Assembly: GCA_965248265.1 (NCBI GenBank)
Contig: CBDFJF010000002.1
Span: forward strand, 2,400,001 to 2,464,000
Direction: 5' to 3'
Source of the DNA: Candidatus Latescibacterota bacterium
GTDB taxonomy: Bacteria; Latescibacterota; UBA2968; UBA8231
Length of the DNA stretch: 64,000 nucleotides
This document shows positions 11,980-53,334 of this stretch, in pieces (position 1 is the stretch's first letter; every line of letters begins with the position of its first letter). A program made the position numbers and the translations under genes. Below the pieces are notes generated by a model that was not told the origin of the DNA, made no database searches, and saw only the letters and a program-made list of their open reading frames with translations.

Positions 11980-12563
11980 GCGCTTAGTGAGGATAAAATA
12001 GGTTGGGGGTATCCATTTAACCGGACTATACACTGAGTGTTGTAGTATCAACGCGGATTCCCGCATTTTCAGGAGGCAGAAAGTATAGATCGGATGCTCC
12101 TCGGAGCGTCGCTGGTAGTTGCTGAAAATGCGCTCGACAAACCGGCCCATAGCCACGGCGTGAGAAAGAACGGCTCCGAAGCGAGCGAAGAGGATGTTGT
12201 CTCGTAGGAGTTCCAGCTTGCCGAACGCCTCTACCCCTGCCGTATTGAGTTGCCATCTTCGGGGCGGATTTCCCCTTGGGGCTCGTTGGAATTGTCGAGC
12301 CGCCCTCAATGCTACACACGACGAAAGTACCGGCCCCGTTGATAAACGTCGACAGAATCGCCACGGGCGGGCATCTCATCCACTTTTGGGTCATCTTCTT
12401 ACTATTTTTCCGAGGGGTCATGGCAAAGAAAGACCACGAAGGGACGCAGGGGCCGGGTTCGACCTCAAGATCTGGTATCCAGTCCGATTAAATGGATACC
12501 CCCAAAATAGGTTATCGTTACTCAGTCAGTTATTTTGGCAATTTGCCAGCGTTGATGGCGGTT
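11980..12563. repeat. About 80-bp repeat copy 1 with dif-like site A1, split by MITE
   Basis: GCGCTT AGTGAGGATAA AATAGG TT[MITE+TSD]ATCGTTACT CAGTCAG TTATTTTGGCAATTTGCCAGCGTTGATGGCGGTT; near-identical to 22541-22618 and 31626-31704. Confidence 0.9.
12005..12503. mobile_element. 499-bp MITE / non-autonomous IS derivative
   Basis: TIRs GGGGGTATCCATTTAACCGGACT (12005-12027) and AGTCCGATTAAATGGATACCCCC (12481-12503), 22/23 match; 10-bp TSD AAAATAGGTT at 11995-12004 and 12504-12513. Confidence 0.92.
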
Positions 12564-12750
12564 TGAGGAACCTCATCTCGGTCGCTACTGGGAATCGGAC
12601 GAACAGAATCAGGAGCGCTGGGACACGATTGTCGTCGACGATGACTTCCTGGATCTGTTGGACATCGGTATCGAGACCGGGACGCTGTCGCCCCAGGGTG
12701 GGAGACTGATGGATGGCGACACCTGTCTGCTCAACGAGGAGGCGGTTAGG
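12562..12750 (+). pseudogene. Possible MacB/FtsX-type ABC permease periplasmic fragment
   Basis: VVDDDFLDLLDI...G...CLLNEEAVR resembles VDxDF..GI..G...INE.A; no start codon. Confidence 0.4.
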
Positions 12751-12846
12751 CCTCAAGGTGAGGAAGGTGAACAGCTCGGCAGCGGCTGAACGCCCGGAGG
12801 TGAAGGGGAGGTCTTCTCAGAAAGCCCTAAACCGCGGGAACCGCCA

Positions 12847-12895
12847 AATGTTACATAGGGTTTACAATGTTACATAGAGTTTAGAGTTTACATAG
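12847..12895 (+). promoter_or_regulatory. Tandem TGTTACATAGRGTTTA repeats upstream of secreted FlgD-domain gene
   Basis: AATGTTACATAGGGTTTAC AATGTTACATAGAGTTTAG AGTTTACATAG; AT-rich within GC-rich DNA. Confidence 0.55.
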
Positions 12896-12959
12896 TCTGT
12901 CCGGTGCCAGTCCTATTTTCTCGACTGACCTTTGCACGCCAAGACCTGCGGAGTTGCCC

Positions 12960-15900
12960 ATGAGAAAGTGGTGGTCGGGGAGGTGCGTAGTCGCCGTGCT
13001 TGTGCTGGGAGCCTCCACCCCTCTACAGGCACAGAACCGGGAGGGGTACTCCCTGCGGGGCAATCGGATTTTCGTCGATCGGTCGCGGCACTGGGAGGAC
13101 TGGAACTTCCCCTCCTATCTGGTGCGCGTCGACTCCGACGGCTCCGTGCGTGCGCGCAACTTCCGCGGGATAACGGATCTCCTGCAAGATTCGACCGGCT
13201 TCGCTCGCCAGGTCACCGTGAACTCGCCCACTCCCCGCATCCTCAACATGGACAGCACCCGGGTGGTCGGCTCCACGGGAGAGTTCCTCAAGGACTTCAA
13301 TGACAACTTCGTCTACAGCTACCTCGTCAGACCGGGGGTGAGCCGCGCCGGCTCCAACATCCACCTGGCCGGTAACATCATCGACGGCGACCCGAACACC
13401 TACTGGGAGCCCGACCCGAACGACCCCATCGAGGACTGGTGGGTCGAGGTGGACGTGGGCCGGGTCGCCTACGTGGAACGGCTGCGCTTCTTCTTCGCCG
13501 AGAAGGGGATGGGCGACCCCTTCTACCAGTTCATCCTGTACCTGGGAAAAAGGCAGAGCAATCACCTGACGGACGATCCCACTCCTTCCTACACCGTCCT
13601 CAACCCGATCGAGCATGGGGGAAACGTCGATCAGCGGGCCTTCGTCTACGAGGCGGATCGCGTCAATGACGAGCTCCCCGAGGACCGGCGGGCTGACCCA
13701 GACCTGATTCTGGGGCGGTCTCCGACCGACTGGACCGGCACCTTGCTCGAGGTCGTCCGCTTCCAGATCACGGGTACGCGAGGCATACGGGCCGAGCTGG
13801 TCAGCCGGGAGGAATGGGAGGCCCTGCCTCCCGGCGAGCGGGGCGAGGTCATCTACTGGCTGCAGGATGGGACCTTCGAGGAACCGGTCGAGCCGGCAGT
13901 ATATGCGACTCTTGCGCCGGAACGGCAGGGCCGCATCGACCACTACCGCCGGGAGCTGCCCCGGCTGAGCGAGGTCGAGGCCTGGGGTTGGGGAGACGAA
14001 ATCGGCCAGGCGGCGCAAAGCGGCGGCGGGGTGGTTGAGCTGACCTCTCCCGGAAACCCCAGCCGGATCTTCGACGGCGACTACAATACCCACGTCCAGT
14101 TGAGGACCTTGGATCGCTTGCTTCCGGGGGGCAACACCCTGGATGTGGATCTGGGATCCGCCGTCTGGCTGGACCGGATGATCGTCATCGGCGGCCCCCG
14201 CGGTTTCATCGTCCGCGGATCCACCGGCGCCCGGGGGCTGGGCGGCTACTTCCAGTGGGAGCAGCTCAATCCGGACGAGTGGGAGGATCACCGCTTGAGC
14301 TACGAGCAGGTCGCCATCTTCGATCCGCCCCGCCAGGTCCGCCACCTGCAGATGATCGCCCTGGCCAACGCCGCCGACCGGAACGAGATCAGCAGCAAGT
14401 TCTGGCCGCGGATTCGGGCCATCATGCTCTTCTCCGCGGGCACTCCGGCCCAGACCATCCTCGAGTCCCCCGTGATCGAGCTGCCCCGCCTCTACAACAT
14501 CGGCACCGTGCGCTGGGTGGCGGACGAGCCCCCGGGGTCCGAAGTGACGATCCGCACCCGCACCGGCACCGAGCTGGTAGAGGAAATCCACTACTACGAC
14601 AGGAACGGCGTCGAGAAGACGGAGAAGGAGCACAAGCGCTTGCCCCGTTCCCTCAAGGGACTGATCGACACCGCCATCGTCGCCGGCCCCGGCTGGAGTC
14701 CGTGGAGCGAAGAGATCGAGGTGTCTGGGGGTCAGGCCAAGTCGCCGGGACCGCGCCGCTTCCTGATGATCCAGGCCCGCCTGCTCAGTCACGACCGCCA
14801 GGCCGTGCCCTCCATCGAGTCGCTCACCGTGGAGCTGCTGGCGCCGGTGGCGCAGCAGCTGGGGGCAGAGGTCTGGCCCGAGGTGGCGACGGCCGGCGTT
14901 CTGGACACCTTCGAGGTCTACGTGCAGCCGCAGTTTCTCGAGCAGCCGGACACGGACCGCAGTCCCGGCCTCGACGAGGTCTTGCTGCACGGCGACCCGC
15001 CCCTCGACCTGTACCTGGTCGACGCCGCACTCGGCACCGAGTCCGAGCTCGTCCGGGGCGGGCCCCACGTGCTCTTCGAGCGGAGGGCTGATGGAGGCCT
15101 ACGGAGCGCGGACGGCCAGACCCTGCGCGTGATCAGCGAGGGGGACTCCCTGTGGTTCCGCCTGCCGTCCCCCGTGGGCAGCGCCTCCTCCGAGCTGGTA
15201 GGCCGGAGCTACTACCGACGTCTCGAAGTCGGGGCGCAAGTGCCGGCCAACCTGGCCGACAATCTGTTGAGCGTCAATGGCTACCTCGGATTGCCCGAAG
15301 AAGAGCGTGGCGCGATACGGTACTACCGCCGGGTCGCTGGGGCGCTTGTCGAAGTGGACAACGAGGCATACTACGAGCTGCCCGAAGAAGAGCGGGTGCC
15401 GATCCGGTATTACCGCATCGTCACCAGTCTCGGACAACAGACCGTCTTCGACGCGCGCGGAGACACTCTGGACCGCATCGGCCACGCCCGGCTGGGCGCG
15501 GACGAGCGCGGCTGGGTAGTCGGCCCGGGACGGCTCCTGCGCCTGCGCTTTGCCACCGTGGCCTACCTTCAGAGCACCCGGTTGCGGCTGTCCGTGCGCG
15601 AGAGCAGCGCGGCGCCGGACTGGCAGACCGCCGACGGGCAGGACGTGACCGGCCTGCGGCCGGCGAGCACCCTCGTCATCGCGACCCCGCCCAAAGCCAA
15701 CGTCCTCGGCGACCTGGCCATCGCTGCCAATCCCCTCACCCCCAACGGCGACGGCATCAACGACGAGGCCCAGATCGCTTTCTCCCTGTTCCAGGTCGCC
15801 GCGGCCCGTCCGGTGGTCCTGCGCATCTTCACCTTGGGGGGTGACGCCGTGCGCAGGCTGGAACAGCAGTTGACGGGAGGACCGCAGAGCTTCGCCTGGG

Positions 15901-16022
15901 ACGGCCGCGACGACGGCGGCGATCTCGTGCCTCCCGGCCTCTACCTGTGCCAGATCGAGGCATCGACGGATGCCTTGGACAAGAAGCATAGGGAGACTCG
16001 CGTAATCGGTGTCGTCTATTGA
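12960..16022 (+). CDS. Large secreted protein with discoidin-like domains and C-terminal TPNGDGxND/FlgD-Ig domain (paralog 1)
   Basis: Signal peptide; IIDGDPNTYW, WWVEVDVG; IRTRTG..WSPWS..SPGPRRF module; LTPNGDGINDE...WDGRDD.G.LVPPGLY...VVY; GGAG RBS. Confidence 0.85.
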   Translation: MRKWWSGRCVVAVLVLGASTPLQAQNREGYSLRGNRIFVDRSRHWEDWNFPSYLVRVDSDGSVRARNFRGITDLLQDSTGFARQVTVNSPTPRILNMDSTRVVGSTGEFLKDFNDNFVYSYLVRPGVSRAGSNIHLAGNIIDGDPNTYWEPDPNDPIEDWWVEVDVGRVAYVERLRFFFAEKGMGDPFYQFILYLGKRQSNHLTDDPTPSYTVLNPIEHGGNVDQRAFVYEADRVNDELPEDRRADPDLILGRSPTDWTGTLLEVVRFQITGTRGIRAELVSREEWEALPPGERGEVIYWLQDGTFEEPVEPAVYATLAPERQGRIDHYRRELPRLSEVEAWGWGDEIGQAAQSGGGVVELTSPGNPSRIFDGDYNTHVQLRTLDRLLPGGNTLDVDLGSAVWLDRMIVIGGPRGFIVRGSTGARGLGGYFQWEQLNPDEWEDHRLSYEQVAIFDPPRQVRHLQMIALANAADRNEISSKFWPRIRAIMLFSAGTPAQTILESPVIELPRLYNIGTVRWVADEPPGSEVTIRTRTGTELVEEIHYYDRNGVEKTEKEHKRLPRSLKGLIDTAIVAGPGWSPWSEEIEVSGGQAKSPGPRRFLMIQARLLSHDRQAVPSIESLTVELLAPVAQQLGAEVWPEVATAGVLDTFEVYVQPQFLEQPDTDRSPGLDEVLLHGDPPLDLYLVDAALGTESELVRGGPHVLFERRADGGLRSADGQTLRVISEGDSLWFRLPSPVGSASSELVGRSYYRRLEVGAQVPANLADNLLSVNGYLGLPEEERGAIRYYRRVAGALVEVDNEAYYELPEEERVPIRYYRIVTSLGQQTVFDARGDTLDRIGHARLGADERGWVVGPGRLLRLRFATVAYLQSTRLRLSVRESSAAPDWQTADGQDVTGLRPASTLVIATPPKANVLGDLAIAANPLTPNGDGINDEAQIAFSLFQVAAARPVVLRIFTLGGDAVRRLEQQLTGGPQSFAWDGRDDGGDLVPPGLYLCQIEASTDALDKKHRETRVIGVVY

Positions 16023-16074
16023 GAAAAGCCCCGTCTTCACCCTTGTCCGTATCCCGCCGACGAGGGCGCCCTGC

Positions 16075-16150
16075 TACGACTTCGTCGACGGGCCAGTAGA
16101 GCTTCCTCAGGCTCAACGGGGGATCGACCCTTTTGCCGTGGCTTTCGCAT
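16075..16150 (-). pseudogene. 5-prime relic of a putative glycoside-hydrolase-like gene (same family as 31338-31523)
   Basis: RBS + MRKP, frameshift, then HGKRVDPPLSLRKLYWPVDEVV, matching HAKRLDPPVSLHKLRWPVDELL at 31.4 kb. Confidence 0.7.
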
Positions 16151-16205
16151 AGTGATCCTCCTGTGGGCATTGGTTAACCTTTGACCGGCCGTGTCTGCAA
16201 GCTTC

Positions 16206-17933
16206 CTACTCGATCCAGAAGGAATACAGCTTGGCATCTTTCAGATGAAACGCGAGGCGGATGTAGCGGTCATTCAGACTTCCCAGTTTCTTCTCGTTGC
16301 TCCAGCCGACGCGTTGGCGGGTCGAGTCGCCACGGACCGCCTGGCAATTTTCCTCACCAAAGCCGTCGATCCGACTGCCGTCTTCCGCCACGACCGAGGC
16401 ACGAACGTAGCCGTTGGGACAAACGTCGGCGTTGACGAACAGCTTGCCTTCCCCCTCAAACACCAGTGGGCGCGTTATCACGACGCCGGCCTCTTCGGCG
16501 GCATTGAGCGAAGCGAAGCCGTCGCGGCGGAGGATCGCCAATCCAGTTTTTTGCGCCCAAGAGTTCTTGGGGCCGTCTCCATTCGAGCCCATGTAGTAGA
16601 ACCACAGCTCGTCGTCCTTCAACAGTGGGCCGCTGACGGTGGGCGCATGGGCCATCTGTAGATAGTGCGGTTTCCAACTGCCCTCCGGCCCCATCGGAAT
16701 GAACGGCTTCCGGTCGCCGAGGTAGTAGAAGTGTCGTCCGTCCCGGCTCCCGGCCAGACGAAGCCAGTTGCGCTTCATCCAGGGCCGGGTTGGCATCAGG
16801 TTGCGCTCCCGGCTGTCTTCGCGGCTGGCCGGATGGTAGCAAGTCATCGAGAAGCAGTTCAGCCACATGCTTTCGTAGCAGAAGCCGTCGGCCTTGTAGA
16901 CGCCTTGCATGCCGGGGGTCTTGGCATCTTCGCCATCGGGATAGGCATAGATCCGCGGACTGGACCAGTGGATCAAGTCGTCGCTCTCGCACATGGCCAT
17001 GGCGCGGGCCGAATGCCACACGGGGGTCACCTGGTGGTCGGGTCCGATGACGTGCTTGGTGTTGGCGACATATTTTTGGAGCTTTTTATCCCACCTCACG
17101 TGCAACACGTCGCCGACCCCGACCGGCTGATGATCCGGCGCCTGAAAGACGCAGGCGCCCTTCGGCAGGGAGACGTGGGTCTTGACGGTCCATCGGATCC
17201 CGTCCGGCGAGACGGAGAGAGCGTGCATAGAGCCCTGAGCCGGTTGGGACTCGTCATATCTGTGCCCGGTCGGCCAGATCAGTTCGCCCACGCCCGGCGC
17301 TTGAACGAGAAGATTCGTGGTCGGGTCGCGCCGATGCGCCCAGGTCACCTTCTTCATCGGAGCGCCGCCAATCGCCTTCCACCGCTGCGAGGGGTCCGGA
17401 TCATCGGGCTCGTAGAACAGCCCGGCCGAAAAACCGCGTCCAAGGATCACGTTGTTCGGGCCGCCGACAAAGCGCTGCGGTTCGGCGGAGTGGTCGTAGA
17501 TATCCAGATCGGGTTTTTCCCAGTTCACGCCGTCGGTGGAATAGGCCATGTACATCAAACCGCCGGGCCCGCCGTAGTACATGCGATAGCCATGCTCATC
17601 GTCCGGGCACACGAAATGCCCGTAGGCGCTACTGAGGCCGTCGCCGCGAATATGGGTCAAAACCGGGTTGGCGGGATGATCCCGCGGACTGTGAAACCGG
17701 CGCTTCAGCCCCCGCTGGTGCGCTATAAGAAAATCATCGACGAAAAGCTGTCGTGTCGTGTCGATCTTCATGCGCCAGAGGCACAGATCCTCGGGGAACA
17801 TTAAACGCTCGTTGAGCATGATGCCGTACCCGCGAGGAAACACCGACCAGTCGGTCACCAGGTCGGATTCGTCCCACGGGGGCTGAATGTTCCGGTCGTC
17901 CACCTCTACGGCGAGTGTCTTTGTCTGGGCCAT
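16206..17933 (-). CDS. GH32-like beta-propeller protein (paralog 2)
   Basis: RQLFVDD, YSTDGVNW, ESDDLIHWS, LRRDGFASL, KLYSFWIE; GGAG RBS. Confidence 0.8.
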   Translation of the reverse strand: MAQTKTLAVEVDDRNIQPPWDESDLVTDWSVFPRGYGIMLNERLMFPEDLCLWRMKIDTTRQLFVDDFLIAHQRGLKRRFHSPRDHPANPVLTHIRGDGLSSAYGHFVCPDDEHGYRMYYGGPGGLMYMAYSTDGVNWEKPDLDIYDHSAEPQRFVGGPNNVILGRGFSAGLFYEPDDPDPSQRWKAIGGAPMKKVTWAHRRDPTTNLLVQAPGVGELIWPTGHRYDESQPAQGSMHALSVSPDGIRWTVKTHVSLPKGACVFQAPDHQPVGVGDVLHVRWDKKLQKYVANTKHVIGPDHQVTPVWHSARAMAMCESDDLIHWSSPRIYAYPDGEDAKTPGMQGVYKADGFCYESMWLNCFSMTCYHPASREDSRERNLMPTRPWMKRNWLRLAGSRDGRHFYYLGDRKPFIPMGPEGSWKPHYLQMAHAPTVSGPLLKDDELWFYYMGSNGDGPKNSWAQKTGLAILRRDGFASLNAAEEAGVVITRPLVFEGEGKLFVNADVCPNGYVRASVVAEDGSRIDGFGEENCQAVRGDSTRQRVGWSNEKKLGSLNDRYIRLAFHLKDAKLYSFWIE

Positions 17934-17959
17934 ATCGGGCAACTCCGTGCTCGGCGTTT

Positions 17960-18046
17960 GAAGCGGTTCTCTGTCCTGCTGACCGGGATGTACCGCGACA
18001 GCGAAGAGCAACTCATGCCGGGCATCTTCGCGTACTCACCGTCGGG
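17960..18046 (-). pseudogene. Internal relic of a further beta-propeller paralog, cut at site A2
   Basis: PDGEYAKMPGM then SCSSLSRYIPVSRTENR; 18014-18046 matches 43512-43544 at 30/33 nt. Confidence 0.7.
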
Positions 18047-18051
18047 GCAAG

Positions 18052-18090
18052 ACGGATAGTGGTTATAAACACGCTATCGGGAGTCGGTCA
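18052..18090. repeat. dif-like site A2
   Basis: ACGGAT AGTGGTTATAA ACACG CTATCGGGAGT CGGTCA (5-bp spacer, degenerate). Confidence 0.6.
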
Positions 18091-18233
18091 AGTGGATTCT
18101 TGGGCTTTGCGACCGCCGTCGCGGGTTTTCGGGGGTGACCATCGGCGAGTGGCTCGACTGCGCAGCCTGATTCGGGCCGCCGCGCCTGATCGATCCCCAA
18201 GGCCCTCTCGACATGACGCCCCAACCGATCTAG

Positions 18234-18262
18234 ACTACTGATAATGCCCTCTTATCCTTCCT
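18234..18262. repeat. dif-like site B1
   Basis: ACTACTGATAA TGCCCTC TTATCCTTCCT; left arm identical to B3. Confidence 0.7.
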
Positions 18263-18438
18263 CCTGATTCGGCCGCTGGTCTGATCAGGCGCGCCCCTAC
18301 AGGCCTTGGCGGCGCTCGACGAAGGCCGCATGCTGAGCGTGGCCGACAATACCAGACGCCGATTCAAGGAAAAATGACCTTCAAAAGTGTCCGACAAAGA
18401 TTCGGTTAAGCACATGTGACCTACCAAGGGAGGCCAAT

Positions 18439-20154
18439 ATGAGCGCCACAAAGCGAACCTGGAACGAATCGGCCGCCACGATGGACTGGACGCCGTTTCC
18501 CGTCGGCTACGGCATCCTGCTCAACGAGCGCTACCAGTTCCCCATGGACATGGCCCTGGTGCGTATGAAGCTGGACAACAGCCGGCAGCTATTCGTCGAC
18601 AACCACGTCATAGCCCATATGGAAGGGCTCACCCGCGAAACCCACTCGACGCGAAGCCACCCGGCAAATCCCGTCTTCGCGCCTTACGATGATTTCAACA
18701 AGGGTCACGCCTTCACTCGCAACCCCGGTTTTGGAAACTCGGCGTACATCTGCCCGGACCCCGAGCACGGGTTTCGGCTCTACTACAACGGACCTGGAGG
18801 GGGAAGCGGTAGCGGATGGGCGCTGCACGTGGCTTACTCCAGCGACGGCGTCAACTGGGATCTGCCTGAGCTCAACGTCTTCGACGACCTCGACCGCAGC
18901 AGCTTCCCGGGCGGCCCGAACAACGTCGTCAGCGCCGTAGGAGAGCTGAACGGGCTCTTCTTCGAACCGGATGACCCCAACCCTGAGCGGCGATGGAAGG
19001 CCATCCACCGGCCCAAACGGCGTCCACTCAGGCACACACCCTGGCCGTACTTAAGGTTGCCTCCGGGGAACCCCGGTACCGGAGCGCCCTACGAGCTGCA
19101 CGTCTCCCCCGACGGACTTCGGTGGACCTTCGAGGCCGAGACCAATCAATGGAAAACCATTGACGCCTGGGACTCCGGTGGTGTTCACGGGCTGTATAGT
19201 CAGCTCACCGTTCATGGTGACGTCCCCCAGTATCCTCTTCTTGGCGGCGGCGACGTCTTCCGGGCCCGCTGGGACCCCATTCTGGGGAAGTACGTTGGCA
19301 ACACCAAGCATTACATTGGACCCGACCGCCGCATGTCGCCTGTCTACCACGCCGCCCGTGTCGTGGGCCAGATCGAGAGCGACGACCTGGTCCACTGGTC
19401 GGCCCCGCGCATCTACGCCTACCCCGACGGCGAGGATGCCAAGGAGCCTTTCAGCGCAATGCAGGGCATATACGAGGCGGACGGCTATCCCTACGAGAGC
19501 ATGTGGCTCAACAACTTCTCCATGTCCACTGTGACCCCGGCATCGAAAGAGGAGATTCGCGATAGGGACATGACACGGCAGTACAGCAAGAACAACTGGA
19601 TACGGCTGGCGGCCAGCCGCGACGGCCGGCACTGGTACTACTTCGGGGACCGCAAGCCGTTTATCCCGCTGCGTCCGGAGGGACGCTGGAAGGAGAAAGC
19701 CGGGGTGCCGAACAAGCCGCAGTACCTACGCGCCGTCAATCTCGCTACGACGGGCGGGCCGATCATCAAGGACGACGAGCTCTGGTTCTACTACCGCGGT
19801 GGCGGTTCCACGGGGATCGCCGTCCTGCGCCGCGACGGCTTTGCGTCCCTCAACGCCGACGAGGACGGCGGGCTGGTGTTCACGCGGCCGTTCATATTCG
19901 AAGGCGAGGGCAGGCTGCACGTCAACGCCGAGGTTTCAGCCGGCGGATACGTGCGCGCCGCGGTGGTGGATGAAGACACCGCAGAGGAACTTGGAGGCTT
20001 TACCGAACACGACAGCGTCGGGGTCACCGAGGGCTCGACGAGGGCGCCACTGTGCTGGGGAGAGCACGAATCGCTGGGCCAGTTCAAGGACCGCTACGTG
20101 AGGCTGGCCTTCCATCTCAAGAGCGCCAAGCTCTACTCCTTCTGGGTCGAGTAG
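18439..20154 (+). CDS. GH32-like beta-propeller protein (paralog 3)
   Basis: GYGILLNER, RQLFVDN, YSSDGVNW, ESDDLVHWS, LRRDGFASL, KLYSFWVE; GGGAGG RBS. Confidence 0.8.
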   Translation: MSATKRTWNESAATMDWTPFPVGYGILLNERYQFPMDMALVRMKLDNSRQLFVDNHVIAHMEGLTRETHSTRSHPANPVFAPYDDFNKGHAFTRNPGFGNSAYICPDPEHGFRLYYNGPGGGSGSGWALHVAYSSDGVNWDLPELNVFDDLDRSSFPGGPNNVVSAVGELNGLFFEPDDPNPERRWKAIHRPKRRPLRHTPWPYLRLPPGNPGTGAPYELHVSPDGLRWTFEAETNQWKTIDAWDSGGVHGLYSQLTVHGDVPQYPLLGGGDVFRARWDPILGKYVGNTKHYIGPDRRMSPVYHAARVVGQIESDDLVHWSAPRIYAYPDGEDAKEPFSAMQGIYEADGYPYESMWLNNFSMSTVTPASKEEIRDRDMTRQYSKNNWIRLAASRDGRHWYYFGDRKPFIPLRPEGRWKEKAGVPNKPQYLRAVNLATTGGPIIKDDELWFYYRGGGSTGIAVLRRDGFASLNADEDGGLVFTRPFIFEGEGRLHVNAEVSAGGYVRAAVVDEDTAEELGGFTEHDSVGVTEGSTRAPLCWGEHESLGQFKDRYVRLAFHLKSAKLYSFWVE

Positions 20155-20259
20155 CTTGGACTGAAAGCCGGGAACCGAGCGGACCGATGTGGCCCTACGC
20201 GGCGACATGGGAGTATTATCCCGGCGGGCCGTTGGGTCACACATGAGAGGCGCGGATAT

Positions 20260-20994: not shown

Positions 20995-21071
20995 GACCGG
21001 GGCTGGAGCGGCCGGCGCACTGGTGATCTCAAGCGTCATACTATCGGAACAACCTAAGGAGGTGACTGACC

Positions 21072-22295: not shown

Positions 22296-22379
22296 CTTCC
22301 TATCGCCGATTCAATCGAATCTCGGGCGCAGGACCTGTTCGGAGACCGGGCATGGATCCTTCACTTCGTCATGTTAGCA

Positions 22380-22540
22380 GAGAGAGACGAATCAAAGGAG
22401 CCATCACGTTCGGTTTATCGGACTAAGGGCCTGCATGGTTCGACGAATACACGCTGGAATCCGCCAGGCGAATTCCGCTCTTGCTGCTGCATGGAGAGCA
22501 CGACGAATGGGCTCCAGTCGCTCTCTCGGAGCGAGCCCGC
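22380..22540 (+). pseudogene. Alpha/beta-hydrolase C-terminal fragment truncated at site A3
   Basis: RIKGAITFG..stop..IPLLLLHGEHDEWAPVALSER; in-frame stop, ends at repeat boundary. Confidence 0.6.
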
Positions 22541-22618
22541 GCGCTTAGTGAGGATAAAATAGGTTATCGTTACTCAGTCAGGCGTTATTTTGGCAATTTG
22601 CCAGCGTTGATGGCGGTT
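22541..22618. repeat. About 80-bp repeat copy 2 with intact dif-like site A3 (22547-22574)
   Basis: GCGCTT AGTGAGGATAA AATAGG TTATCGTTACT CAGTCAGGCGTTATTTTGGCAATTTGCCAGCGTTGATGGCGGTT; arms 9/11 inverted. Confidence 0.9.
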
Positions 22619-23072
22619 GCTGAGGCTACGAACAGTGTCCTCGGGAGCCGCTCTGAGCGAAACGGGCGTTTTCAGCGACAATGGTGGTGGGAAGCATTCC
22701 CAGGCAACGAACACGGAGAACCATACGGTGCCGGTCAGCCACCCGGAGCCGATGAACCCCAGCGGATGGATGCGCCACAGTCCCTGATGGAAATCACCAA
22801 CAAGGGCCTTTGTACACCCTCCGTAAATCTTGTCTTGGTGAGTCCCCAACTTACGAAACCCCGTATTCCCGCTGGAGCGATGCCGCAGGCTCACCGTGCC
22901 TCTGTCGGTGCGATTCTCCACAACCTGACCATACCTCCCGATGTCGGGGCGGTTTCCGACCGTCATCCTACGTGGTATATTGCCAGTGTTGACACCGTTG
23001 GCGGGGCATTTCGCCTCGCTTTTGAGCAGTGTCTTCGCAAACCGGCCCTCTGGCACCTCAAGGAGAATCGCC

Positions 23073-24092: not shown

Positions 24093-24159
24093 CGTCGTTC
24101 CACTCGCCAGCTTTTCTCCTCAGGTGGGGTCCTGAGAACGTGAGCACGTGACGTCCGGT

Positions 24160-25302: not shown

Positions 25303-25313
25303 AACGCCGCCTT

Positions 25314-25371
25314 ATAGAAGATCAGCGACCAAAATCGATACTTTGTCAAGATGCTGGCGCGGGTGTGTAGG
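25314..25371. repeat. Degenerate copy (A4) of site A5 and its flank
   Basis: ATAGAAGATCAGCGACCAAAATCGATACTTTGTCAAGATGCTGGCGCGGGTGTGTAGG aligns with 27691-27748 ATAGACACGATAAGCGGCCATTATCGATATTTTGTCAACGTGCTGGCGTGTGTGTAGG. Confidence 0.7.
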
Positions 25372-27473: not shown

Positions 27474-27686
27474 TCTGTCGTTCCTCTGCTACTTTCGGTG
27501 AACGTTGAGGACACCGATGCGCGGCACGAGCGCGTTCCCTTCGTCTGTCAGATCGAACGAGCGCCCGTACGTCTCGAGCAACGGCTCCCACATGTTTTCG
27601 CGGTCAAGGACAGATAATAGTGCGTCTCGGCATCTTATCGAAATGAATCCCTCGGCGTAGACGCAGTTGCCGTATGCCGTAGGCAA

Positions 27687-27727
27687 ACGGATAGACACGA
27701 TAAGCGGCCATTATCGATATTTTGTCA
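27687..27727. repeat. dif-like site A5
   Basis: ACGGAT AGACACGATAA GCGGCCA TTATCGATATT TTGTCA. Confidence 0.75.
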
Positions 27728-28055: not shown

Positions 28056-28499
28056 AGTCGAGGAGACATTGACGGAGAAGCCGATGTTCAGGGTCACCGC
28101 CCAGCAGCACGTGACGACCAACAAACAATCCGGCAATAGCTGGAGTCGATTGAGCGTTGGCCAGGGCAAAACCGTGATGGCCCTGCCGCCCTCACCGAAC
28201 CCCGCTCGATCCAGCGCCACCTGCAGGGCGTTGGCCTGCCCGCACGGGCACCACCAATCGCACAGGCACGGCCATCCCAGCAGTCCGAGTTCGAATACGC
28301 CGCCTGATTCGAGCGGGTACCGTCCTGATCCGACGGGATCGATGCGCCTGAATCGACCCTGCGGGTCTGCAAAACCGCCGAAAATCTATCCTTAGCCCCG
28401 AAGCCAAGTTCGTCATACCAGCCGGCTCCGCGAAACACGCATTCCGTCCCTCACAAAATCCCCAGATTCCATTCGACACCAAGGTCCTGAGGGTTCTAA

Positions 28500-28533
28500 A
28501 CTATCTATAATGCTGCTTATCGTGCCTAACCGT
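28500..28533. repeat. dif-like site B2
   Basis: ACTATCTATAA TGCTGC TTATCGTGCCT AACCGT; upstream 50 bp resembles that of B4. Confidence 0.75.
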
Positions 28534-31625: not shown

Positions 31626-31704
31626 GTGCTTAGTGAGGATAAAATGGGTTATCGTTACTCAGTCAGTCGTTATTTTTGGCATTTTGCCAGCGTTGATGGC
31701 GGTT
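31626..31704. repeat. About 80-bp repeat copy 3 with dif-like site A6 (31632-31659)
   Basis: GTGCTT AGTGAGGATAA AATGGG TTATCGTTACT CAGTCAGTCGTTATTTTTGGCATTTTGCCAGCGTTGATGGCGGTT; arms identical to A3, spacer differs by 1 nt. Confidence 0.9.
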
Positions 31705-31964
31705 TTTGTGGTGTGACGGTCGATCGACAAGAGGCTGGGCCTTTCCTTGGTGGCCCTGGAGCGCTGACCCCGCAGCCTCGAAGGATTCGATCCCCAAGGC
31801 GGCCAAATCATCCACGTCGTTTACCGACAGATGTGTCGCGTGTGGGAGTGCTCAATGTCCCTCAGACTCACAGACGGGCAAACAGTGTCAACCGAGAGCA
31901 GCACGTCGCTCTCCGCGGGTCTGAGTCGCCCATCGGTTTGGTCAGGTGATTACCGGCTGCTCTC

Positions 31965-34614: not shown

Positions 34615-34643
34615 ACTACTGATAATGACCGCTTGTCGTTCTT
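34615..34643. repeat. dif-like site B3
   Basis: ACTACTGATAA TGACCGC TTGTCGTTCTT; upstream AAAACACCATC shared with B4. Confidence 0.65.
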
Positions 34644-34728
34644 CGTCCCTGGTGGGGGACGATCCTGGGGGATAGTACAGCGCCCGTGCGGCGCATCGCA
34701 CGCTTTCTGCACGACCTGATGGTGCCAT

Positions 34729-36237: not shown

Positions 36238-36591
36238 GTGGCCGCAGTCGATCTCACCAGGCTTCTTTCTGCTGCTGAAACCAATCTTACCGGGTTTCTA
36301 AATCGCTTGGAGGTCTGGTGTCGAGTAGAACTCGGTCCTTTCTCGAAGGTGTCGGCCTCCCTGCCCGGCCGCCACCAATTGCCCCGGCACGATCCGACCC
36401 CCAATCCGAGTTCGAGTTTGCGGCCTGAGCTGACGGTACTGCTGCGGCCTGGCCGCCCACCGACGCTCAGAAACCGCTTTTTTCGCAATCCGAAATCCGT
36501 TCGACTAAACGAAATTCTGACCTGAGCCCATCATGCCGATCAGGAAATCCCTCAAAAAAACACCATCGACAACACAAGGTGGACCTTCCAA

Positions 36592-36625
36592 ACTAGCGAT
36601 AATGTGCGTTATTCTTCCTATCCGT
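36592..36625. repeat. dif-like site B4
   Basis: ACTAGCGATAA TGTGCG TTATTCTTCCT ATCCGT. Confidence 0.75.
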
Positions 36626-36783
36626 CCCCGAGCCCAGATGAAATTCGGCGCGAGCCCACAGTGGCTGCCCGAAAGCTCAAGAGGAAATTACATCGAATCC
36701 ATTGATGAGGCCTACGACCGGCGTCACGCCGGAGAAGTCATCCGTGCCGCCATGACCGACTACGAGGAGCAGTTCGGCTAGAG

Positions 36784-42350: not shown

Positions 42351-42809
42351 GTGCGACCCCGGCCCGGTGAGCTAAGGGATTTTCTGAACTCGAGACATGG
42401 CCCGCACGATACGCATTCTATGGGTCTTAGAACCCACAAGCCGCGTACCTGCGCTCGTCCGGGACTTCCAGCGGTACTGATTGGACGCCGGCTCCGCGCC
42501 CCATACATCACAGGTCCTGCTGTACGGCGCTGCCCCTCTACCGAGTCGGGGATTTGCTGGGACAGGAGTCTCGGGCGTTTTCAGCGACAGATTAGGGCAC
42601 AACGGTGACGTCGTTGTGACCGCTTCAGGCGGCGAAATCCAGTTCAGGTTGGGGATGGGGGCGTGAGGGGGCGATCGGCGGTGCCCGTGATGGCAGGCCG
42701 ACGCCTTCCAGGTAGCGGGCAATGGAGCGGGGCTCGGTAAACTCCGTAAACGAGGGAAACGGCAATAGAGGCACGAAGAGAGGAGGAAACCAAAACTCAG
42801 GAATCGCAG

Positions 42810-50944: not shown

Positions 50945-51119
50945 AGGACAGACTCCAGTACGTGAGGAATCCGCAAGATACGAAAGCGGAAGTCGGGCTT
51001 CAACACGTCGCCCTATGGCGGCGCCAAGCTCTCGTCCCAGATGCGTCGCCAGACCCAATCGACCGTCATCAGGTCGACGCACGAGGGGGTCAAGACCAGC
51101 CTCGTCCGCCCGTCACCGA

Positions 51120-53180
51120 TCACCTCGGTGCGACCGCGTAAACCCTGAATTCGTATCCGGGCACGTATGCCTCGAACGCGGCATTGCCCGCTTCGACGCG
51201 GTGTTCGACCTTTTTATCTTCCCACCATTCAGCAATCTGCACCGTGCTCGTACCCAGCCCGTTGGCCGTGACCTTTCCTCTCCACGGCTCCGCCTCATGG
51301 TTTACCAGCACCACCAGTATGCCCTTCGCGGTTCGGTTCACGATGTATTCAATGGGGGGGCCGTCCACTTTGGCCAGGGCAAACCTTTCCATGAGGTGGG
51401 AGATGAGGTCCAACCCGATGTCGAGGAGCTTGGATCGGTCGTGGGTCTGGAGGTGCTGCGGCGTAGACAGGATCGCCTCCCCTTGCCCCACACGCCGGCG
51501 GGTAATCAGGGGGTCACCGTATCCCGTGACCGGTGATTCGTTGACGGCGAGCACCTCGGCTTCATTGACCACGACCCTCCGGTAGCTATACAAACCCTCC
51601 GTGATCGTCTTCCCTCCGCACCGGCGGCAGCTGGAGAAGGTCGATCCCAACTGCGTCCGGGTCGGCTCTACGCCGAAGAGTTGGTGAGCCTCCGGCTCTT
51701 CGTGGATCTGGGCCACGTTGGCGACCAGGACCCCTCCCCCCTCCACGTACGCCTTGAGTCTCTCGAGGAGCGCACCCTTCAAGTTGATGTCGCCCAGGAG
51801 CATGATGACCGAGTAGTGCTTCAGCGCCTCCAGCAGGCAGTCCTCCAGCACCACGTCGAAGCTGTCTCCCCAGGGGCTGTGGGTCAGGCACTTCGATTCA
51901 TACGGTCTTGTGTCAAACCCCGATCTGATGGCCCGATCCACTTCCTTCATGGTTTTCCAGGGTCCTCTTCCCTCACTACCCTTATAGCTCTTCTTGCAAC
52001 CGGGAAAAGCGGCTTCGAAGAAGTTGTCCACCATGTGGTCACCGGGGGTGAAGGGAATGCAGCCCCAGACCACGTCAGCTCCGATACGTGGGCGCGCGAA
52101 CGGGTCCCAGCCATGATCGTGCTCCAGCATCAAGGCCACGGGGACATGCGGTCTTCCCCTGACCGGGTGTCTTTTGAGAACGAAATCCGAAAACCGCTTT
52201 CCCGCTTCACCGTGGGTCGTCAGCCTGACCGTTGCATCATCCCACTCGTACATGAAGAAATCCAAGTATGCCTGCTGCTGAACCAGGATGTTGGCTCCGT
52301 GGAAATATGCCGACGCGTTCCGGTTCAGCATGGTGGTCGGAGAGATTCCGCCCGTCCTCTGTCCCTCCTTGTTGTAGCATGGGTAACTCCACATCGAGCC
52401 ACCGTCCTTTGAGCGATAGATCTCCGCCAGTTCGTCGCAGTAGCCCCAGTAGCCCGAGTACTGCTGGGCCGCTCCTCTGGCGAAAGCGGTCAGCACCTGG
52501 ATGTTGAAATCGGACTTGTCGTTCACGAGCACGAACTTTGTTCCCCACTCGAAGCAATAATGGGCCTGAAGACCTGCGTGCTTCACGAAACTCATCAGAT
52601 TGCAGTTGTCGCGGTTCAGACCACGCCTCCCTATATAGACGTGAGGCGCGGTGTCGTTCATGGCATCTCTCATCTCGGCCAGTTTCTGTCCTGCTTCCGA
52701 TTCAGGTGCCGGGAAATTGAGCTTGTGCCTCTCGATGTCTATCCCGTACTCCCCGGATCTGATGTAGTTCTCGAACCACTTGTAGGCTTCGGCCTTGGAT
52801 GCAAAGCCCTCAGTCGGCATTCTCCCGACCAAAACCTGTCCCCCATGGAAGAACCACCAGACCCGGTTTCCCCCAAGGGCGCGCATACGCTCGAGCGTCG
52901 CATCAACCCACGCATCCGCACGCCGCTTGTACTCCTCCTTGCCCAGACCACCAACCATGCCGACGTGATAGGACAATGGCGTTTGGACAATCAATCCACA
53001 ATCCGCATCCGCCAGCTCCTGTGCGGTGGGCAGGTTCTTCTCCGACCTTTGCAGGTCATTTTCCCAATCTCGAATCCAGTGACTCCAGTTGATCATGCTC
53101 GCGTTGATCATCCCGTTCTCAAGCGCGAATCGCCTTACCGCATTCGACCTTGCCGTGATCTTCACCGGATCGGTTTCCAT
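51120..53180 (-). CDS. Hypothetical carbohydrate-active-like protein with C-terminal GH42 trimerisation-like region; start uncertain
   Basis: AFARGAAQQY, PVALML...HGW, Y.VI.LLG...L..YVEGGG.LV; the longer ORF extends across site A7. Confidence 0.6.
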   Translation of the reverse strand: METDPVKITARSNAVRRFALENGMINASMINWSHWIRDWENDLQRSEKNLPTAQELADADCGLIVQTPLSYHVGMVGGLGKEEYKRRADAWVDATLERMRALGGNRVWWFFHGGQVLVGRMPTEGFASKAEAYKWFENYIRSGEYGIDIERHKLNFPAPESEAGQKLAEMRDAMNDTAPHVYIGRRGLNRDNCNLMSFVKHAGLQAHYCFEWGTKFVLVNDKSDFNIQVLTAFARGAAQQYSGYWGYCDELAEIYRSKDGGSMWSYPCYNKEGQRTGGISPTTMLNRNASAYFHGANILVQQQAYLDFFMYEWDDATVRLTTHGEAGKRFSDFVLKRHPVRGRPHVPVALMLEHDHGWDPFARPRIGADVVWGCIPFTPGDHMVDNFFEAAFPGCKKSYKGSEGRGPWKTMKEVDRAIRSGFDTRPYESKCLTHSPWGDSFDVVLEDCLLEALKHYSVIMLLGDINLKGALLERLKAYVEGGGVLVANVAQIHEEPEAHQLFGVEPTRTQLGSTFSSCRRCGGKTITEGLYSYRRVVVNEAEVLAVNESPVTGYGDPLITRRRVGQGEAILSTPQHLQTHDRSKLLDIGLDLISHLMERFALAKVDGPPIEYIVNRTAKGILVVLVNHEAEPWRGKVTANGLGTSTVQIAEWWEDKKVEHRVEAGNAAFEAYVPGYEFRVYAVAPR

Positions 53181-53294
53181 GATCCGGCGATTTCGAGTGT
53201 ACGCGGCGGGCCGAGACAGATCCGTGGAAGCATCCCTGGGTGCCTCAGAATGATAGCAATGAGCCAGCTGAAACCAGTCTTTCCGATCGGTCTT

Positions 53295-53334
53295 ACGCAT
53301 AGTATGGATAAAGGGCATTATCGTGAGTCCGTCA
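53295..53334. repeat. dif-like site A7
   Basis: ACGCAT AGTATGGATAA AGGGCA TTATCGTGAGT CCGTCA. Confidence 0.75.

What the first reader, a model, noticed from the sequence alone, without database searches (positions are those of the whole stretch)
11980..53334. Dispersed family of 11 polarised dif/Xer-like sites partitions the island into modules: candidate undescribed gene-shuffling system
Seen: imperfect palindromes of about 11-(5-7)-11 bp with an ATAA/TTAT core, at module junctions. Class A (+ strand): A1 11986 (split), A2 18058 AGTGGTTATAA-ACACG-CTATCGGGAGT, A3 22547 AGTGAGGATAA-AATAGG-TTATCGTTACT, A4 25314 (decayed), A5 27693 AGACACGATAA-GCGGCCA-TTATCGATATT, A6 31632, A7 53301 AGTATGGATAA-AGGGCA-TTATCGTGAGT. 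The non-decayed A sites are preceded by RYGSWT and all are followed by NNGTCA. Class B (opposite orientation): B1 18234, B2 28500 ACTATCTATAA-TGCTGC-TTATCGTGCCT-AACCGT, B3 34615, B4 36592 ACTAGCGATAA-TGTGCG-TTATTCTTCCT-ATCCGT. B sites have their own upstream flank. Known: this geometry matches tyrosine-recombinase cores such as E. coli dif (GGTGCGCATAA-TGTATA-TTATGTTAAAT) and the Acinetobacter pdif sites that flank mobile modules. Inference: A and B are left and right ends of nested non-autonomous elements or cassettes, mobilised in trans (no recombinase gene in the window), that assembled this catabolic mosaic.
Basis: partly seen in the sequence, partly recalled or inferred. Interest (0 to 1): 0.88.

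Follow-up and report, generated by a model that had tools for sequence, protein, structure and literature searches.

The report
Ends of rolling-circle insertion sequences
The eleven "dif-like" sites are the conserved 3' ends of mostly decayed copies of an ISCR/IS91-type jumping gene, a known kind of mobile DNA, though part of each end closely copies this bacterium's own likely chromosome-resolution (dif) site.

Summary
All 11 sites exist as described and are far beyond chance: 8 pattern matches in the window against 0.11 expected, and 22 copies of the core in the genome against 0-4 at other spacings.

They are not left and right ends of Xer cassettes. Oriented alike, every site is the same end: the oriIS (3') terminus of ISCR/IS91-family rolling-circle insertion sequences.
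- Full copies elsewhere in the genome encode a Zn_Tnp_IS91 + Y2_Tnp transposase, 39-41% identical to ISCR1 and ISVsa3.
- The site lies about 190 nt after the transposase stop codon.
- Its outer arm plus terminal hexamer matches the ISCR1 and ISVsa3 ends.
- Genome-wide there are 6 full copies, 42 truncated copies keeping only this end, and 3 keeping only the other end.
- Classes A and B differ only in orientation and subfamily.

One twist: the inner arm is nearly identical to the arms of a perfect palindrome. That palindrome sits at the GC-skew peak beside a conserved Xer-like recombinase and is probably the real dif. The dif resemblance is therefore real. I found no evidence that a Xer enzyme acts on these ends.

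The parts
11980..12004 (-). A1, distal piece of an oriIS end (terminal hexamer, outer arm, spacer), cut off from the rest by an insertion
   Evidence: Identical to A3 over GCTTAGTGAGGATAAAATAGGTT, then diverges (D5)
12005..12503 (.). 499-bp element with 23-nt terminal inverted repeats, inserted in the centre of site A1, with a 10-bp duplication AAAATAGGTT
   Evidence: I15, D16. The same end sequence abuts GATAA-N6-TT at two places on C1
12504..12564 (-). A1, proximal piece (second copy of the spacer, inner arm, about 40 nt of IS interior)
   Evidence: (D9, D16): 81-100% identical to the A3 and A6 copies
18051..18112 (-). A2, oriIS-end relic of about 62 nt, facing gene 16206-18011 (-)
   Evidence: blastn to oriIS regions that still carry a transposase remnant: 76% over 63 nt, E 3e-7
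18195..18262 (+). B1, oriIS-end relic of about 68 nt, facing gene 18439-20154 (+)
   Evidence: 72-75% over 65-69 nt to the ends at C2:2467240 and C2:1827480, E 5e-5
22538..22680 (-). A3, oriIS-end relic of about 140 nt
   Evidence: nhmmer with the full-length IS profile, model positions 1695-1867 of 1870, E 2e-13
25314..25345 (-). A4, decayed site. No IS homology detected beyond the motif; shares its upstream flank with A5
   Evidence: no hit
27686..27723 (-). A5, site of subfamily II type. Only the 38-nt site itself matches IS ends
   Evidence: 82% over 38 nt to the end at C2:2467240, E 1.5e-5
28184..28533 (+). B2, the last roughly 110 nt of the transposase gene plus the whole 3' non-coding region and the oriIS end. 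The element ends at 28533, 16 nt before the ATG at 28550
   Evidence: model positions 1528-1864, E 1e-39. The end is fixed by comparison with the paralogous gene at C2:2109824-2112150, which lacks it
31626..31782 (-). A6, oriIS-end relic of about 150 nt
   Evidence: model positions 1700-1864, E 7e-12
34615..34645 (+). B3, decayed site. No IS homology detected beyond the motif
   Evidence: no hit
36332..36626 (+). B4, 3' remnant of the transposase gene plus the oriIS end. The outer arm and terminus GCGTTATTCTTCCTATCCGT closely resemble the ISVsa3 end
   Evidence: model positions 1555-1865, E 7e-23; D11
42566..42746 (-). 3' fragment of an IS copy (end of the transposase gene and part of the non-coding region) that has lost its oriIS site
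   Evidence: model positions 1530-1718
53294..53377 (-). A7, oriIS-end relic of about 84 nt, facing gene 51120-~53250 (-)
   Evidence: model positions 1782-1865, E 2e-4; 79-81% over 81-91 nt
54607..54826 (-). Relic of the other (terIS) end: first roughly 45 codons of the transposase gene and about 100 nt upstream, including an imperfect palindrome
   Evidence: residues 5-46, 88% identity; (model positions 82-289)
7213..7356 (-). Internal transposase gene fragment

Best explanation
The sites are the oriIS (3') termini of a family of ISCR/IS91-type rolling-circle insertion sequences.

Structure. A complete element is about 1.85 kb. It has a short 5' region with an imperfect palindrome (terIS side), a gene of about 485 codons for an HUH transposase, and about 190 nt of non-coding DNA. 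That non-coding DNA ends in an inner arm ACTnnCGATAA, a spacer of 6 nt (rarely 5 or 7), an outer arm TTATCnnnnCT, a terminal hexamer A(A/T)(G/C)CG(T/C), and then the element boundary.

Mechanism, inferred from the family. The transposase nicks at this end. Replication runs back through the element towards terIS, and the displaced strand is inserted elsewhere. Copies that stop early keep only the oriIS end. This is why the genome holds many short relics that all share one sharp border. Running past terIS can carry neighbouring genes along, which builds mosaics.

The window. It holds eleven such ends and no working transposase. Class A is the end read on the minus strand and class B the end read on the plus strand. 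Nine of the eleven point at a co-oriented gene, so the end probably also supplies an outward promoter, as the ISCR1 end does (inferred).

Shown: the linkage of site and transposase, the family assignment, the sharp border, and the excess of oriIS-only relics.
Inferred: nicking, rolling-circle copying, promoter activity.
For: 1. In near-identical copies the homology runs inward from the site and ends sharply a few nt beyond the outer arm.
2. The inward sequence is the 3' end of a gene whose near-full copies carry Pfam Zn_Tnp_IS91 (E 2e-19 to 3e-17) and Y2_Tnp (E 1e-28 to 7e-26). These copies are at C2:1842375-1843835, 2800380-2801882 and 1156469-1157932. The best NCBIfam model is 'ISCR element clade Ia family transposase' (E 3e-113, 379 bits, below its cut-off of 925). 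Identity to ISCR1, ISVsa3 and IS91-family transposases on plasmids is 39-41% over about 90% of the length.
3. 25 of 79 sites (E<=1) have a co-oriented transposase 3' remnant ending 90-273 nt upstream, mostly 180-200 nt. All 6 full-length copies end in a site.
4. The ISCR1 end in L023 lies 232 nt after the stop codon and the ISVsa3 end in L024 about 235 nt after it. Their last roughly 18 nt align with the outer arm plus terminal hexamer of B4. PMC6218425 (passages read) gives the same 232-bp oriIS region for ISCR1.
5. Homologous transposases from other phyla carry the same terminal motif about 190-215 nt after the stop. Those checked were contigs labelled Chloroflexota, Latescibacterota, Bdellovibrionales, Acidobacteriota and Planctomycetota.
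6. The full-length IS profile gives 94 hits: 6 full, 42 with the oriIS end only (85-800 nt, a continuum), 3 with the terIS end only, 43 internal.
7. DNA abutting the ends is broken or replaced. In the array at C2:1134270-1156512, two genes next to ends are truncated: an ApbA_C domain alone, and UxuA profile positions 177-351 of 352. At B2 the end replaces the upstream gene that is present beside the 93%-identical paralogue.
8. PMC13181058 (passages read) describes IS91-family oriIS ends as carrying imperfect subterminal palindromes next to the cleavage site, with no target duplication and with one-ended transposition.
Against: - A4 and B3 show no IS homology beyond the motif, and A5 matches only over the 38-nt site. 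For these three the assignment rests on the motif alone.
- 54 of 79 sites have no recognisable transposase remnant within 450 nt. They are read as short relics.
- The sites do not fold into hairpins better than shuffled sequence as single-stranded DNA (z -1.3 to +1.2, 10 folds of 5 sites). Hairpin recognition, as expected by analogy with other HUH enzymes, is therefore not supported.
- Of the six full-length copies, only the one at C2:1842375-1843835 has an uninterrupted frame with the family's usual C-terminus. The others have stops or shifted ends. Current activity is not shown.
- No empty site in another strain and no circular junction was seen.
- PMC9376610 (passages read) notes that rolling-circle movement of ISCR elements has never been shown experimentally.
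Confidence: 0.87

Rival explanations
1. First reader's model. The sites are core sites of a tyrosine (Xer-type) recombinase, and the DNA between two sites is excised and re-inserted as a cassette. The IS91-like sequence next to them is incidental or only a carrier.
For: - Geometry is 11-6-11 with arms conserved and spacer sequence free.
- The inner arm matches the arms of the probable chromosomal dif (C2:3484647-3484674) at 8-10 of 11 positions in the window sites, and 11 of 11 in some copies elsewhere.
- That palindrome sits at the cumulative GC-skew maximum (3,484,000-3,486,000) beside a Xer-like recombinase. The recombinase's orthologue is next to a similar palindrome in 5 of 5 relatives that have one.
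- The arms are not explained by hairpin pairing.
- Seven directly oriented, about 99%-identical ends separate different gene sets in 22 kb at C2:1134270-1156512.
- Precedent: an ISCR2-sul2 unit is moved by a tyrosine integrase, and deleting the ISCR gene had no effect (PMC9376610, passages read).
Against: - Every site is the same end of the same element. There are no alternating orientations as in pdif modules.
- Relics keep any length of IS interior from 85 to 800 nt.
- Two micro-duplications repeat the last 18 nt and the last 11 nt of the end (C2:1156240 and C2:2796096). Their left borders fall at different places, one of them inside the outer arm, not at the borders of the spacer.
- Spacers differ between subfamilies and from the dif spacer CAAGAA, so full strand exchange with dif would lack homology.
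- The outer arm and terminal hexamer are shared with ISCR1 and ISVsa3 in Gammaproteobacteria.
- Some IS subfamilies in relatives lack the inner arm altogether (L047, L051).
- No tyrosine recombinase gene lies in the window.
Confidence: 0.08
2. The sites are operator/promoter modules: a dimeric transcription factor binds the dyad and controls the gene downstream.
For: - 9 of 11 window sites and 41 of 61 genome sites point at a co-oriented next gene, often within 5-300 nt (my own crude ORF caller).
- B2 ends 16 nt before a start codon.
- The conserved subfamily II interior gives sigma-70-like matches pointing outward at B1 (TCGACA-17-TAGACT) and B2 (TCGACA-18-TAAACT).
- ISCR1 ends carry outward promoters (PMC6218425, passages read).
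- Similar dyads lie just before start codons in phage-like regions.
Against: - A3 and A6 face the 3' ends of convergent genes.
- In the array, ends abut truncated genes.
- Near-identity of 200-440 nt on one side only, with a sharp border, is duplication of an element, not constraint on an operator.
- Promoter-like matches in 17001-37000 are not enriched: 6 found against 4.3 +/- 2.0 expected.
- The downstream genes are functionally unrelated.
- An outward promoter inside the IS end is compatible with the best explanation, not a rival to it.
Confidence: 0.04
3. Chance clustering of AT-rich palindromes in a GC-rich genome.
For: Three of the eleven sites (A4, B3, partly A5) are weak matches with no extended homology.
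Against: - 8 matches against 0.11 expected, and 0 of 100 shuffles reach 8.
- 22 against 0-4 for other spacings.
- 29 of 60 ACT..CGATAA arms in the genome are followed by TTAT at 5-7 nt.
Confidence: 0.01

Closest known systems
ISCR elements (ISCR1; ISCR2 = ISVsa3), the 'common region' branch of the IS91 family
   Same: - Transposase with Zn_Tnp_IS91 + Y2_Tnp domains, 39-41% identical; best NCBIfam model is ISCR clade Ia.
- A non-coding stretch of about 190-235 nt after the stop ends in TTAT..(T/C)CCTAT(A/C)C...
- Variable genes lie beyond that end.
- Many remnant copies keep only the oriIS end. The 'sandwich' of two oriIS around captured genes is described for ISCR28 in PMC12772301 (passages read).
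   Different: - Host is an uncultured marine lineage, not a clinical gammaproteobacterium. Holders include runs labelled seawater metagenome. Related IS copies come from contigs labelled Chloroflexota and Latescibacterota.
- An extra, strongly conserved inner arm ACTnnCGATAA at 6 nt makes the end look like the host's probable dif. ISCR1 and ISVsa3 have no such arm.
- No resistance genes are involved.
IS91, IS801, IS1294 (the IS91-family members shown to transpose)
   Same: Two different ends (oriIS, terIS), imperfect subterminal palindromes, no terminal inverted repeats, one-ended transposition that carries flanking DNA (PMC13181058, passages read). Here there is a terIS-side imperfect palindrome upstream of the gene.
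   Different: - The NCBIfam IS91 model scores below its cut-off (106 against 125 bits).
- The target tetranucleotide is not determined here.
- The palindrome here does not fold as single-stranded DNA.
dif sites, pdif modules of Acinetobacter plasmids, and integrative elements that exploit Xer (IMEX)
   Same: 11-6-11 geometry with ATAA/TTAT next to the spacer. One arm is close to the host dif and one arm is degenerate.
   Different: - The sites are embedded in the end of an HUH transposon.
- There is one orientation per element and no alternating pairs.
- No sign of crossover in the spacer.
CR2-sul2 unit moved by the GIsul2 integrase
   Same: An ISCR-related unit that a tyrosine recombinase excises and integrates through short att cores, independently of the ISCR gene (PMC9376610, abstract and passages read).
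   Different: - There the att cores belong to a genomic island with its own integrase.
- Here the look-alike is of the chromosomal dif, and no recombination product has been seen.
Single-recombinase Xer systems with the site beside the gene (XerH/difH, XerS/difSL; recalled)
   Same: For the probable dif only: one Xer-like gene next to a palindromic site at the replication terminus.
   Different: The recombinase scores below the cut-offs of the XerC, XerD, XerA and XerS models. A separate XerD-like gene exists at C2:769754-770266.

Membership tests
IS91/ISCR family insertion sequence (oriIS end) | HUH-type transposase with Zn_Tnp_IS91 and Y2_Tnp domains | tested here: met
   Pfam hits in 3 of 3 near-full copies scanned. 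NCBIfam ISCR clade Ia E 3e-113 and IS91 E 2e-30, both below their curated cut-offs. 39-41% identity to ISCR1 and ISVsa3.
IS91/ISCR family insertion sequence (oriIS end) | Site lies at the 3' boundary of the element, about 200-250 nt after the transposase stop codon | tested here: met
   25 of 79 sites have a 3' gene remnant 90-273 nt upstream. All 6 full copies end in a site. ISCR1 232 nt, ISVsa3 about 235 nt.
IS91/ISCR family insertion sequence (oriIS end) | Terminal sequence conserved with known family members | tested here: met
   The outer arm plus terminal hexamer of B4 aligns with the ISVsa3 and ISCR1 termini read from L024 and L023. The same motif occurs in relatives from five differently labelled phyla.
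IS91/ISCR family insertion sequence (oriIS end) | Two unlike ends, no terminal inverted repeats | tested here: met
   The 5' side carries a different imperfect palindrome and no copy of the site. The full-length alignment of 6 copies shows the site at one end only.
IS91/ISCR family insertion sequence (oriIS end) | No target-site duplication; specific tetranucleotide next to oriIS | tested here: inconclusive
   Only one junction could be compared with an uninterrupted paralogue. The last 4 nt (NCRY) are conserved, but it cannot be told whether they are element or target.
IS91/ISCR family insertion sequence (oriIS end) | Rolling-circle, polar copying from oriIS | tested here: inconclusive
   Indirect only: 42 oriIS-only relics against 3 terIS-only, with a continuum of lengths. 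No intermediates were seen.
Chromosomal dif / Xer site | One site per chromosome, at the replication terminus | tested here: not met
   About 60-80 sites are spread over C2. The window lies about 1 Mb from the skew maximum. A separate perfect palindrome at C2:3484647-3484674 does meet this feature.
Chromosomal dif / Xer site | Two 11-bp recombinase-binding arms around a 6-8-bp central region | tested here: met
   Geometry and arm conservation. Binding itself is not testable here.
pdif-type module / Xer cassette | Modules bounded by sites in alternating orientation, with breakpoints in the central region | tested here: not met
   Ends in the array are all directly oriented. Homology borders lie beyond the outer arm, not in the spacer.
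pdif-type module / Xer cassette | Tyrosine recombinase acting on the sites | not testable with these tools
   A Xer-like gene with a matching palindrome exists. Action on IS ends was not examined.
Transcription-factor operator | Fixed position upstream of co-regulated, functionally related genes | tested here: not met
   Distances range from 5 to more than 500 nt. 20 of 61 sites do not face a co-oriented gene. Neighbouring genes are unrelated or truncated.

The most novel reading that the evidence does not exclude
ISCR-type rolling-circle elements of this bacterial family have grafted one arm and the spacing of the host's dif site onto their oriIS end. The single Xer-like recombinase that sits beside dif at the terminus could then also bind these ends and recombine them with each other. 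That would excise and re-insert the genes lying between two ends as cassettes. The result would be a hybrid HUH/Xer gene-shuffling system, which would also explain arrays such as the seven identical, directly oriented ends at C2:1134270-1156512.
Probability: 0.2. Interest if true: 0.8.

Novelty: new variant of a known kind. Interest (0 to 1): 0.45.

Why it matters
For annotation:
- A striking set of "recombination sites" turns out to be ends of decayed ISCR/IS91 elements.
- These relics are easy to miss because most have lost their transposase gene.
- They explain the mosaic, truncated and duplicated genes around them.

For mobile-element biology:
- ISCR elements are best known as gene-capture vehicles for antibiotic resistance in clinical bacteria, and how they move is still debated (PMC9376610, passages read).
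- Here is a large, diverse environmental population: 6 full copies and 42 end-only relics in one genome, with fragments in 9 of 12 same-family relatives.
- Its strong polar truncation pattern is natural-history evidence for copying that starts at oriIS.
- The most conserved part of the end is not the family-wide terminus. It is an added arm that copies the host's probable dif.
- If the Xer-like recombinase acts there, it would link two mobilisation mechanisms that are normally treated separately.
- The same site is also a landing pad for two other elements, one of the IS110 family and one with terminal inverted repeats.

Tried and rejected
- Promoter reading. I first read the sites as promoters because of a TTGAC box and TATAAT-like hexamers. 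I dropped this as the primary explanation when the sites were found to abut truncated genes and to be the 3' end of a transposase-bearing element.
- ECF-sigma and sigma-54 promoter readings. Considered by eye and rejected on spacing; no tool was run.
- Hairpin recognition. Single-stranded DNA folds of 5 window sites on both strands are no better than shuffles.
- Synteny and empty sites in relatives. The 20 nearest genomes are other genera and match only single genes at about 65-83% identity, so no orthologous empty site could be examined.
- Sequencing runs. 22 holders were listed and no RNA holder, so nothing can be said about expression.
- Contigs of runs X1, X5, X6 and X9 laid on 16000-35999. 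They are short and break or branch at the repeat copies (for example the joints 31728 to 22619 in X1 and X9). Among the rows shown I could identify no empty site, no circular junction and no joint between two ends. Many rows were not shown, so this is not evidence of absence.
- The dif-type palindrome in the genomes behind loci L014, L007, L018, L015 and L010: 0 of 5 have it with up to 3 mismatches, so co-variation of IS arm and host dif could not be tested there.
- Literature on IS91/ISCR ends resembling dif. 'oriIS' + 'XerC' gave 3 papers; I checked passages of one (PMC12772301), which does not link the two, and saw only the listing for the other two. 'rolling-circle' + 'IS91' + 'dif site' gave 0 papers. 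'IS91' + 'dif' + 'Xer' gave 66 papers, 12 listed, with none about this by title or abstract start; 'dif' there also matches words such as 'different'.
- Figures and supplementary files of the ISCR papers, which hold the published oriIS alignments, could not be seen.

Full report
**The observation.** They are not chance. The pattern ACTNNCGATAANNNNNNTTATC with up to two mismatches gives 8 matches in the window against 0.11 expected, and none of 100 dinucleotide-preserving shuffles reaches 8.

The window is G000:C2:2400001-2464000 of a 7.32-Mb, two-contig genome. Across that genome GATAA-N6-TTATC occurs 22 times. Other spacings give 0-4 and the inverse arrangement gives 0-1. A profile built from 23 strictly defined sites finds 61 sites at E<=0.1 and 79 at E<=1, almost all on C2.

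**One orientation, one kind of end.** When the class A sites are reverse-complemented they align with the class B sites. The common form is an inner arm ACTnnCGATAA, a spacer of 6 nt (5 or 7 in a few), an outer arm TTATCnnnnCT, and a hexamer A(A/T)(G/C)CG(T/C).

Among near-identical copies, homology always extends from the inner-arm side and stops within a few bases after the hexamer. A1 is a copy of the A3/A6 repeat split by a 499-bp element with inverted ends.

**What lies on the inner side.** A3, A6 and A1 belong to a repeat of about 320 nt. Seven copies, about 99% identical, lie in a 22-kb array at C2:1134270-1156512, and an eighth lies at C2:1839005. Older copies are 66-79% identical. Extending the alignment shows that the repeat runs into the 3' end of a gene on the same strand. 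Translation gave a 217-residue C-terminal region, which recurs as 47 tblastn matches across the genome.

Near-full reading frames of 486-534 codons exist at C2:1842375-1843835, 2800380-2801882, 1156469-1157932 and 2687819-2689423. Three were scanned, and all three carry Pfam Zn_Tnp_IS91 and Y2_Tnp. For the copy at C2:1842375-1843835:
- The best NCBIfam model is 'ISCR element clade Ia family transposase' (E 3e-113), followed by 'IS91 family transposase'. Both score below their curated cut-offs.
- Against plasmids the protein is 39-41% identical over about 90% of its length to transposases annotated ISCR1, ISVsa3 and IS91 family.

**Linkage of site and gene.** 25 of 79 sites have a co-oriented 3' remnant of this gene ending 90-273 nt upstream, mostly 180-200 nt. 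The alignment of 19 such regions shows the stop codon, about 190 nt of non-coding DNA, and then the site.

A profile of six full-length elements (1870 positions) gives 94 hits:
- 6 full-length copies, each ending in a site
- 42 that keep only this end, with lengths forming a continuum from 85 to 800 nt
- 3 that keep only the other end
- 43 internal pieces

In the window this profile recovers B2, B4, A3, A6 and A7, a relic of the other end at 54607-54826, and two internal fragments. A more sensitive blastn adds A2, B1, A1 and, for the site alone, A5. A4 and B3 remain motif-only.

**Comparison with known elements, from data.**
- In plasmid record L023 the ISCR1 element ends 232 nt after its stop codon.
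- In L024 the ISVsa3 (ISCR2) element ends about 235 nt after its stop.
- The last roughly 18 nt of both align with the outer arm plus hexamer of B4.
- PMC6218425 (passages read) gives the same 232-bp oriIS region for ISCR1 and shows two outward promoters in it.
- PMC13181058 (passages read) describes IS91-family ends. oriIS and terIS are unlike each other and carry imperfect subterminal palindromes. There is no target duplication, a specific tetranucleotide lies beside oriIS, and 1-14% one-ended transposition carries neighbouring DNA.

Homologous transposases in contigs labelled Chloroflexota (87% identity), Latescibacterota (78%), Bdellovibrionales, Acidobacteriota and Planctomycetota (45-53%) carry the same terminal motif about 190-215 nt after the stop. 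The sites are therefore oriIS ends of ISCR/IS91-type elements.

**Junctions.**
- In the array, the genes that abut two ends are truncated. One has only the C-terminal ApbA domain. The other matches UxuA profile positions 177-351 of 352.
- At B2 a 93%-identical paralogue elsewhere (C2:2109824-2112150) lacks the element. Homology between the two loci begins right after ...CCTAACCGT. This fixes the element's end at 28533, 16 nt before the ATG at 28550, and shows that the end has replaced the gene found upstream of the paralogue.
- Nine of eleven window ends face a co-oriented gene, and 41 of 61 do so genome-wide by my crude ORF caller.
- Sigma-70-like matches in the conserved interior point outward at B1 and B2, though such matches are not enriched overall (6 found against 4.3 +/- 2.0 expected). 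An outward promoter is plausible but only inferred.

**The twist.** The IS-based profile also hit a perfect palindrome, ACTAACGATAA-CAAGAA-TTATCGTTAGT, at C2:3484647-3484674. Several lines point to it being the real chromosomal dif:
- It lies between mutL and a 345-residue tyrosine recombinase with Xer-type domains. The recombinase's best NCBIfam models are XerC, XerD and XerA, all below cut-off.
- The cumulative GC skew of C2 peaks at 3,484,000-3,486,000 at 2-kb resolution. The minimum is at C1:2.96 Mb, which gives two arms of about 3.7 and 3.6 Mb if the contigs form one circle.
- With up to 3 mismatches, the palindrome occurs 1-3 times in 5 of 12 same-family relatives and in 0 of 8 relatives of other families. 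The reversed control gives 0.
- An orthologue of the recombinase (57-73% identical) lies within about 0.5 kb of such a palindrome in all five relatives. mutL is adjacent in three.

The window's IS ends match the palindrome's arm at 8-10 of 11 positions in the inner arm and 6-8 of 11 in the outer arm. Some copies elsewhere match 11 of 11. In 45 non-redundant ends the inner arm is the most conserved stretch of all. The ends do not fold as single-stranded hairpins (z -1.3 to +1.2), whereas the palindrome does (z -7.3). ISCR1 and ISVsa3, and some IS subfamilies in relatives, lack the inner arm.

**Why I still do not accept the Xer-cassette model as the main mechanism.**
- Every site is the same end of the same element.
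- Relics keep arbitrary lengths of IS interior.
- The two micro-duplications repeat the last 18 and the last 11 nt of the end, so their left borders are not at the spacer.
- Spacers differ from the dif spacer.
- No recombinase gene is in the window.
- No recombination product was seen.

The idea that the host Xer-like enzyme also acts on these ends remains open. A tyrosine integrase is known to move an ISCR2-sul2 unit (PMC9376610, abstract and passages read). I found nothing in print that links IS91/ISCR ends to dif.

**Verdict.** But the system is a known one, ISCR/IS91 oriIS ends and their relics, here in a new host lineage and with a dif-mimicking inner arm.

Noticed in passing
G000:C2:3483356-3484674 (outside the window; loci L032, L035): Probable chromosomal dif: a perfect 11-6-11 palindrome at the cumulative GC-skew maximum, between mutL and a 345-aa Xer-like recombinase. 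The gene-site pair is conserved in five same-family relatives.
   Followed up: partly
G000:C2:2705474, 2725832, 2788302 (locus L053) and relative G011 (locus L044): An IS110-family element (396-aa DEDD_Tnp_IS110 + Transposase_20 protein, about 280 nt of non-coding leader) is inserted at the same point, directly after the outer arm of an ISCR end, at three places here and once in another genus. This looks like site-specific targeting of the oriIS site.
   Followed up: partly
window 12005-12503; G000:C1:1235097 and C1:~1237240 (locus L058): An element with ends GGGGGTATCCATTTAA... sits each time directly after GATAA-N6-TT of a dif-like site (3 of 3 ends seen). In the window it made a 10-bp duplication centred on the dyad. 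The window copy is a 499-bp derivative. C1 holds two further ends of this kind, about 2.1 kb apart and in the same orientation.
   Followed up: partly
G000:C2:3430611-3431515 (locus L031); C1:29343, 675820, 677932, 786782, 787566, 1595273, 1598721: Further dif-like 11-6-11 sites with an outer arm TTAnnGGGAGT lie immediately before start codons of small genes in phage-like regions (HTH_17, Xre-type, Mu Gam-like). There are four within 0.9 kb on C2. Whether they are operators or recombination sites is open.
   Followed up: partly
G000:C2:1134270-1156512 (loci L003, L004): Array of seven directly oriented, about 99%-identical ISCR ends of different lengths (71 nt to full length) separating unrelated and partly truncated gene sets. 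At 1156240 the last 18 nt of the end are tandemly duplicated.
   Followed up: partly
G000:C1:1234558-1234868: Fragment of a paralogue of the dif-adjacent recombinase (45-60% identity over about 100 residues), next to an ISCR end relic and the inverted-repeat element.
   Followed up: no
G000:C1:1754279-1754761 (locus L055): A 301-aa tyrosine recombinase whose best NCBIfam model is integron integrase (240 bits, cut-off 265). A possible integron was not looked for.
   Followed up: no
window 16206-18011 (-), 18439-20154 (+), 42810-44459 (-); 28550-30786 (+), 32248-34317 (-), part of 12954-16022 (+): Two families of large paralogous genes: one with no Pfam match, the other with FlgD_ig/CHU_C-type C-terminal domains. 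They are duplicated within the window in direct and inverted orientation, several next to ISCR ends.
   Followed up: no
window 36639-36785 (+): A short open frame of about 48 codons starts 13 nt after the B4 end and precedes the TPR-protein genes. Not examined further.
   Followed up: no
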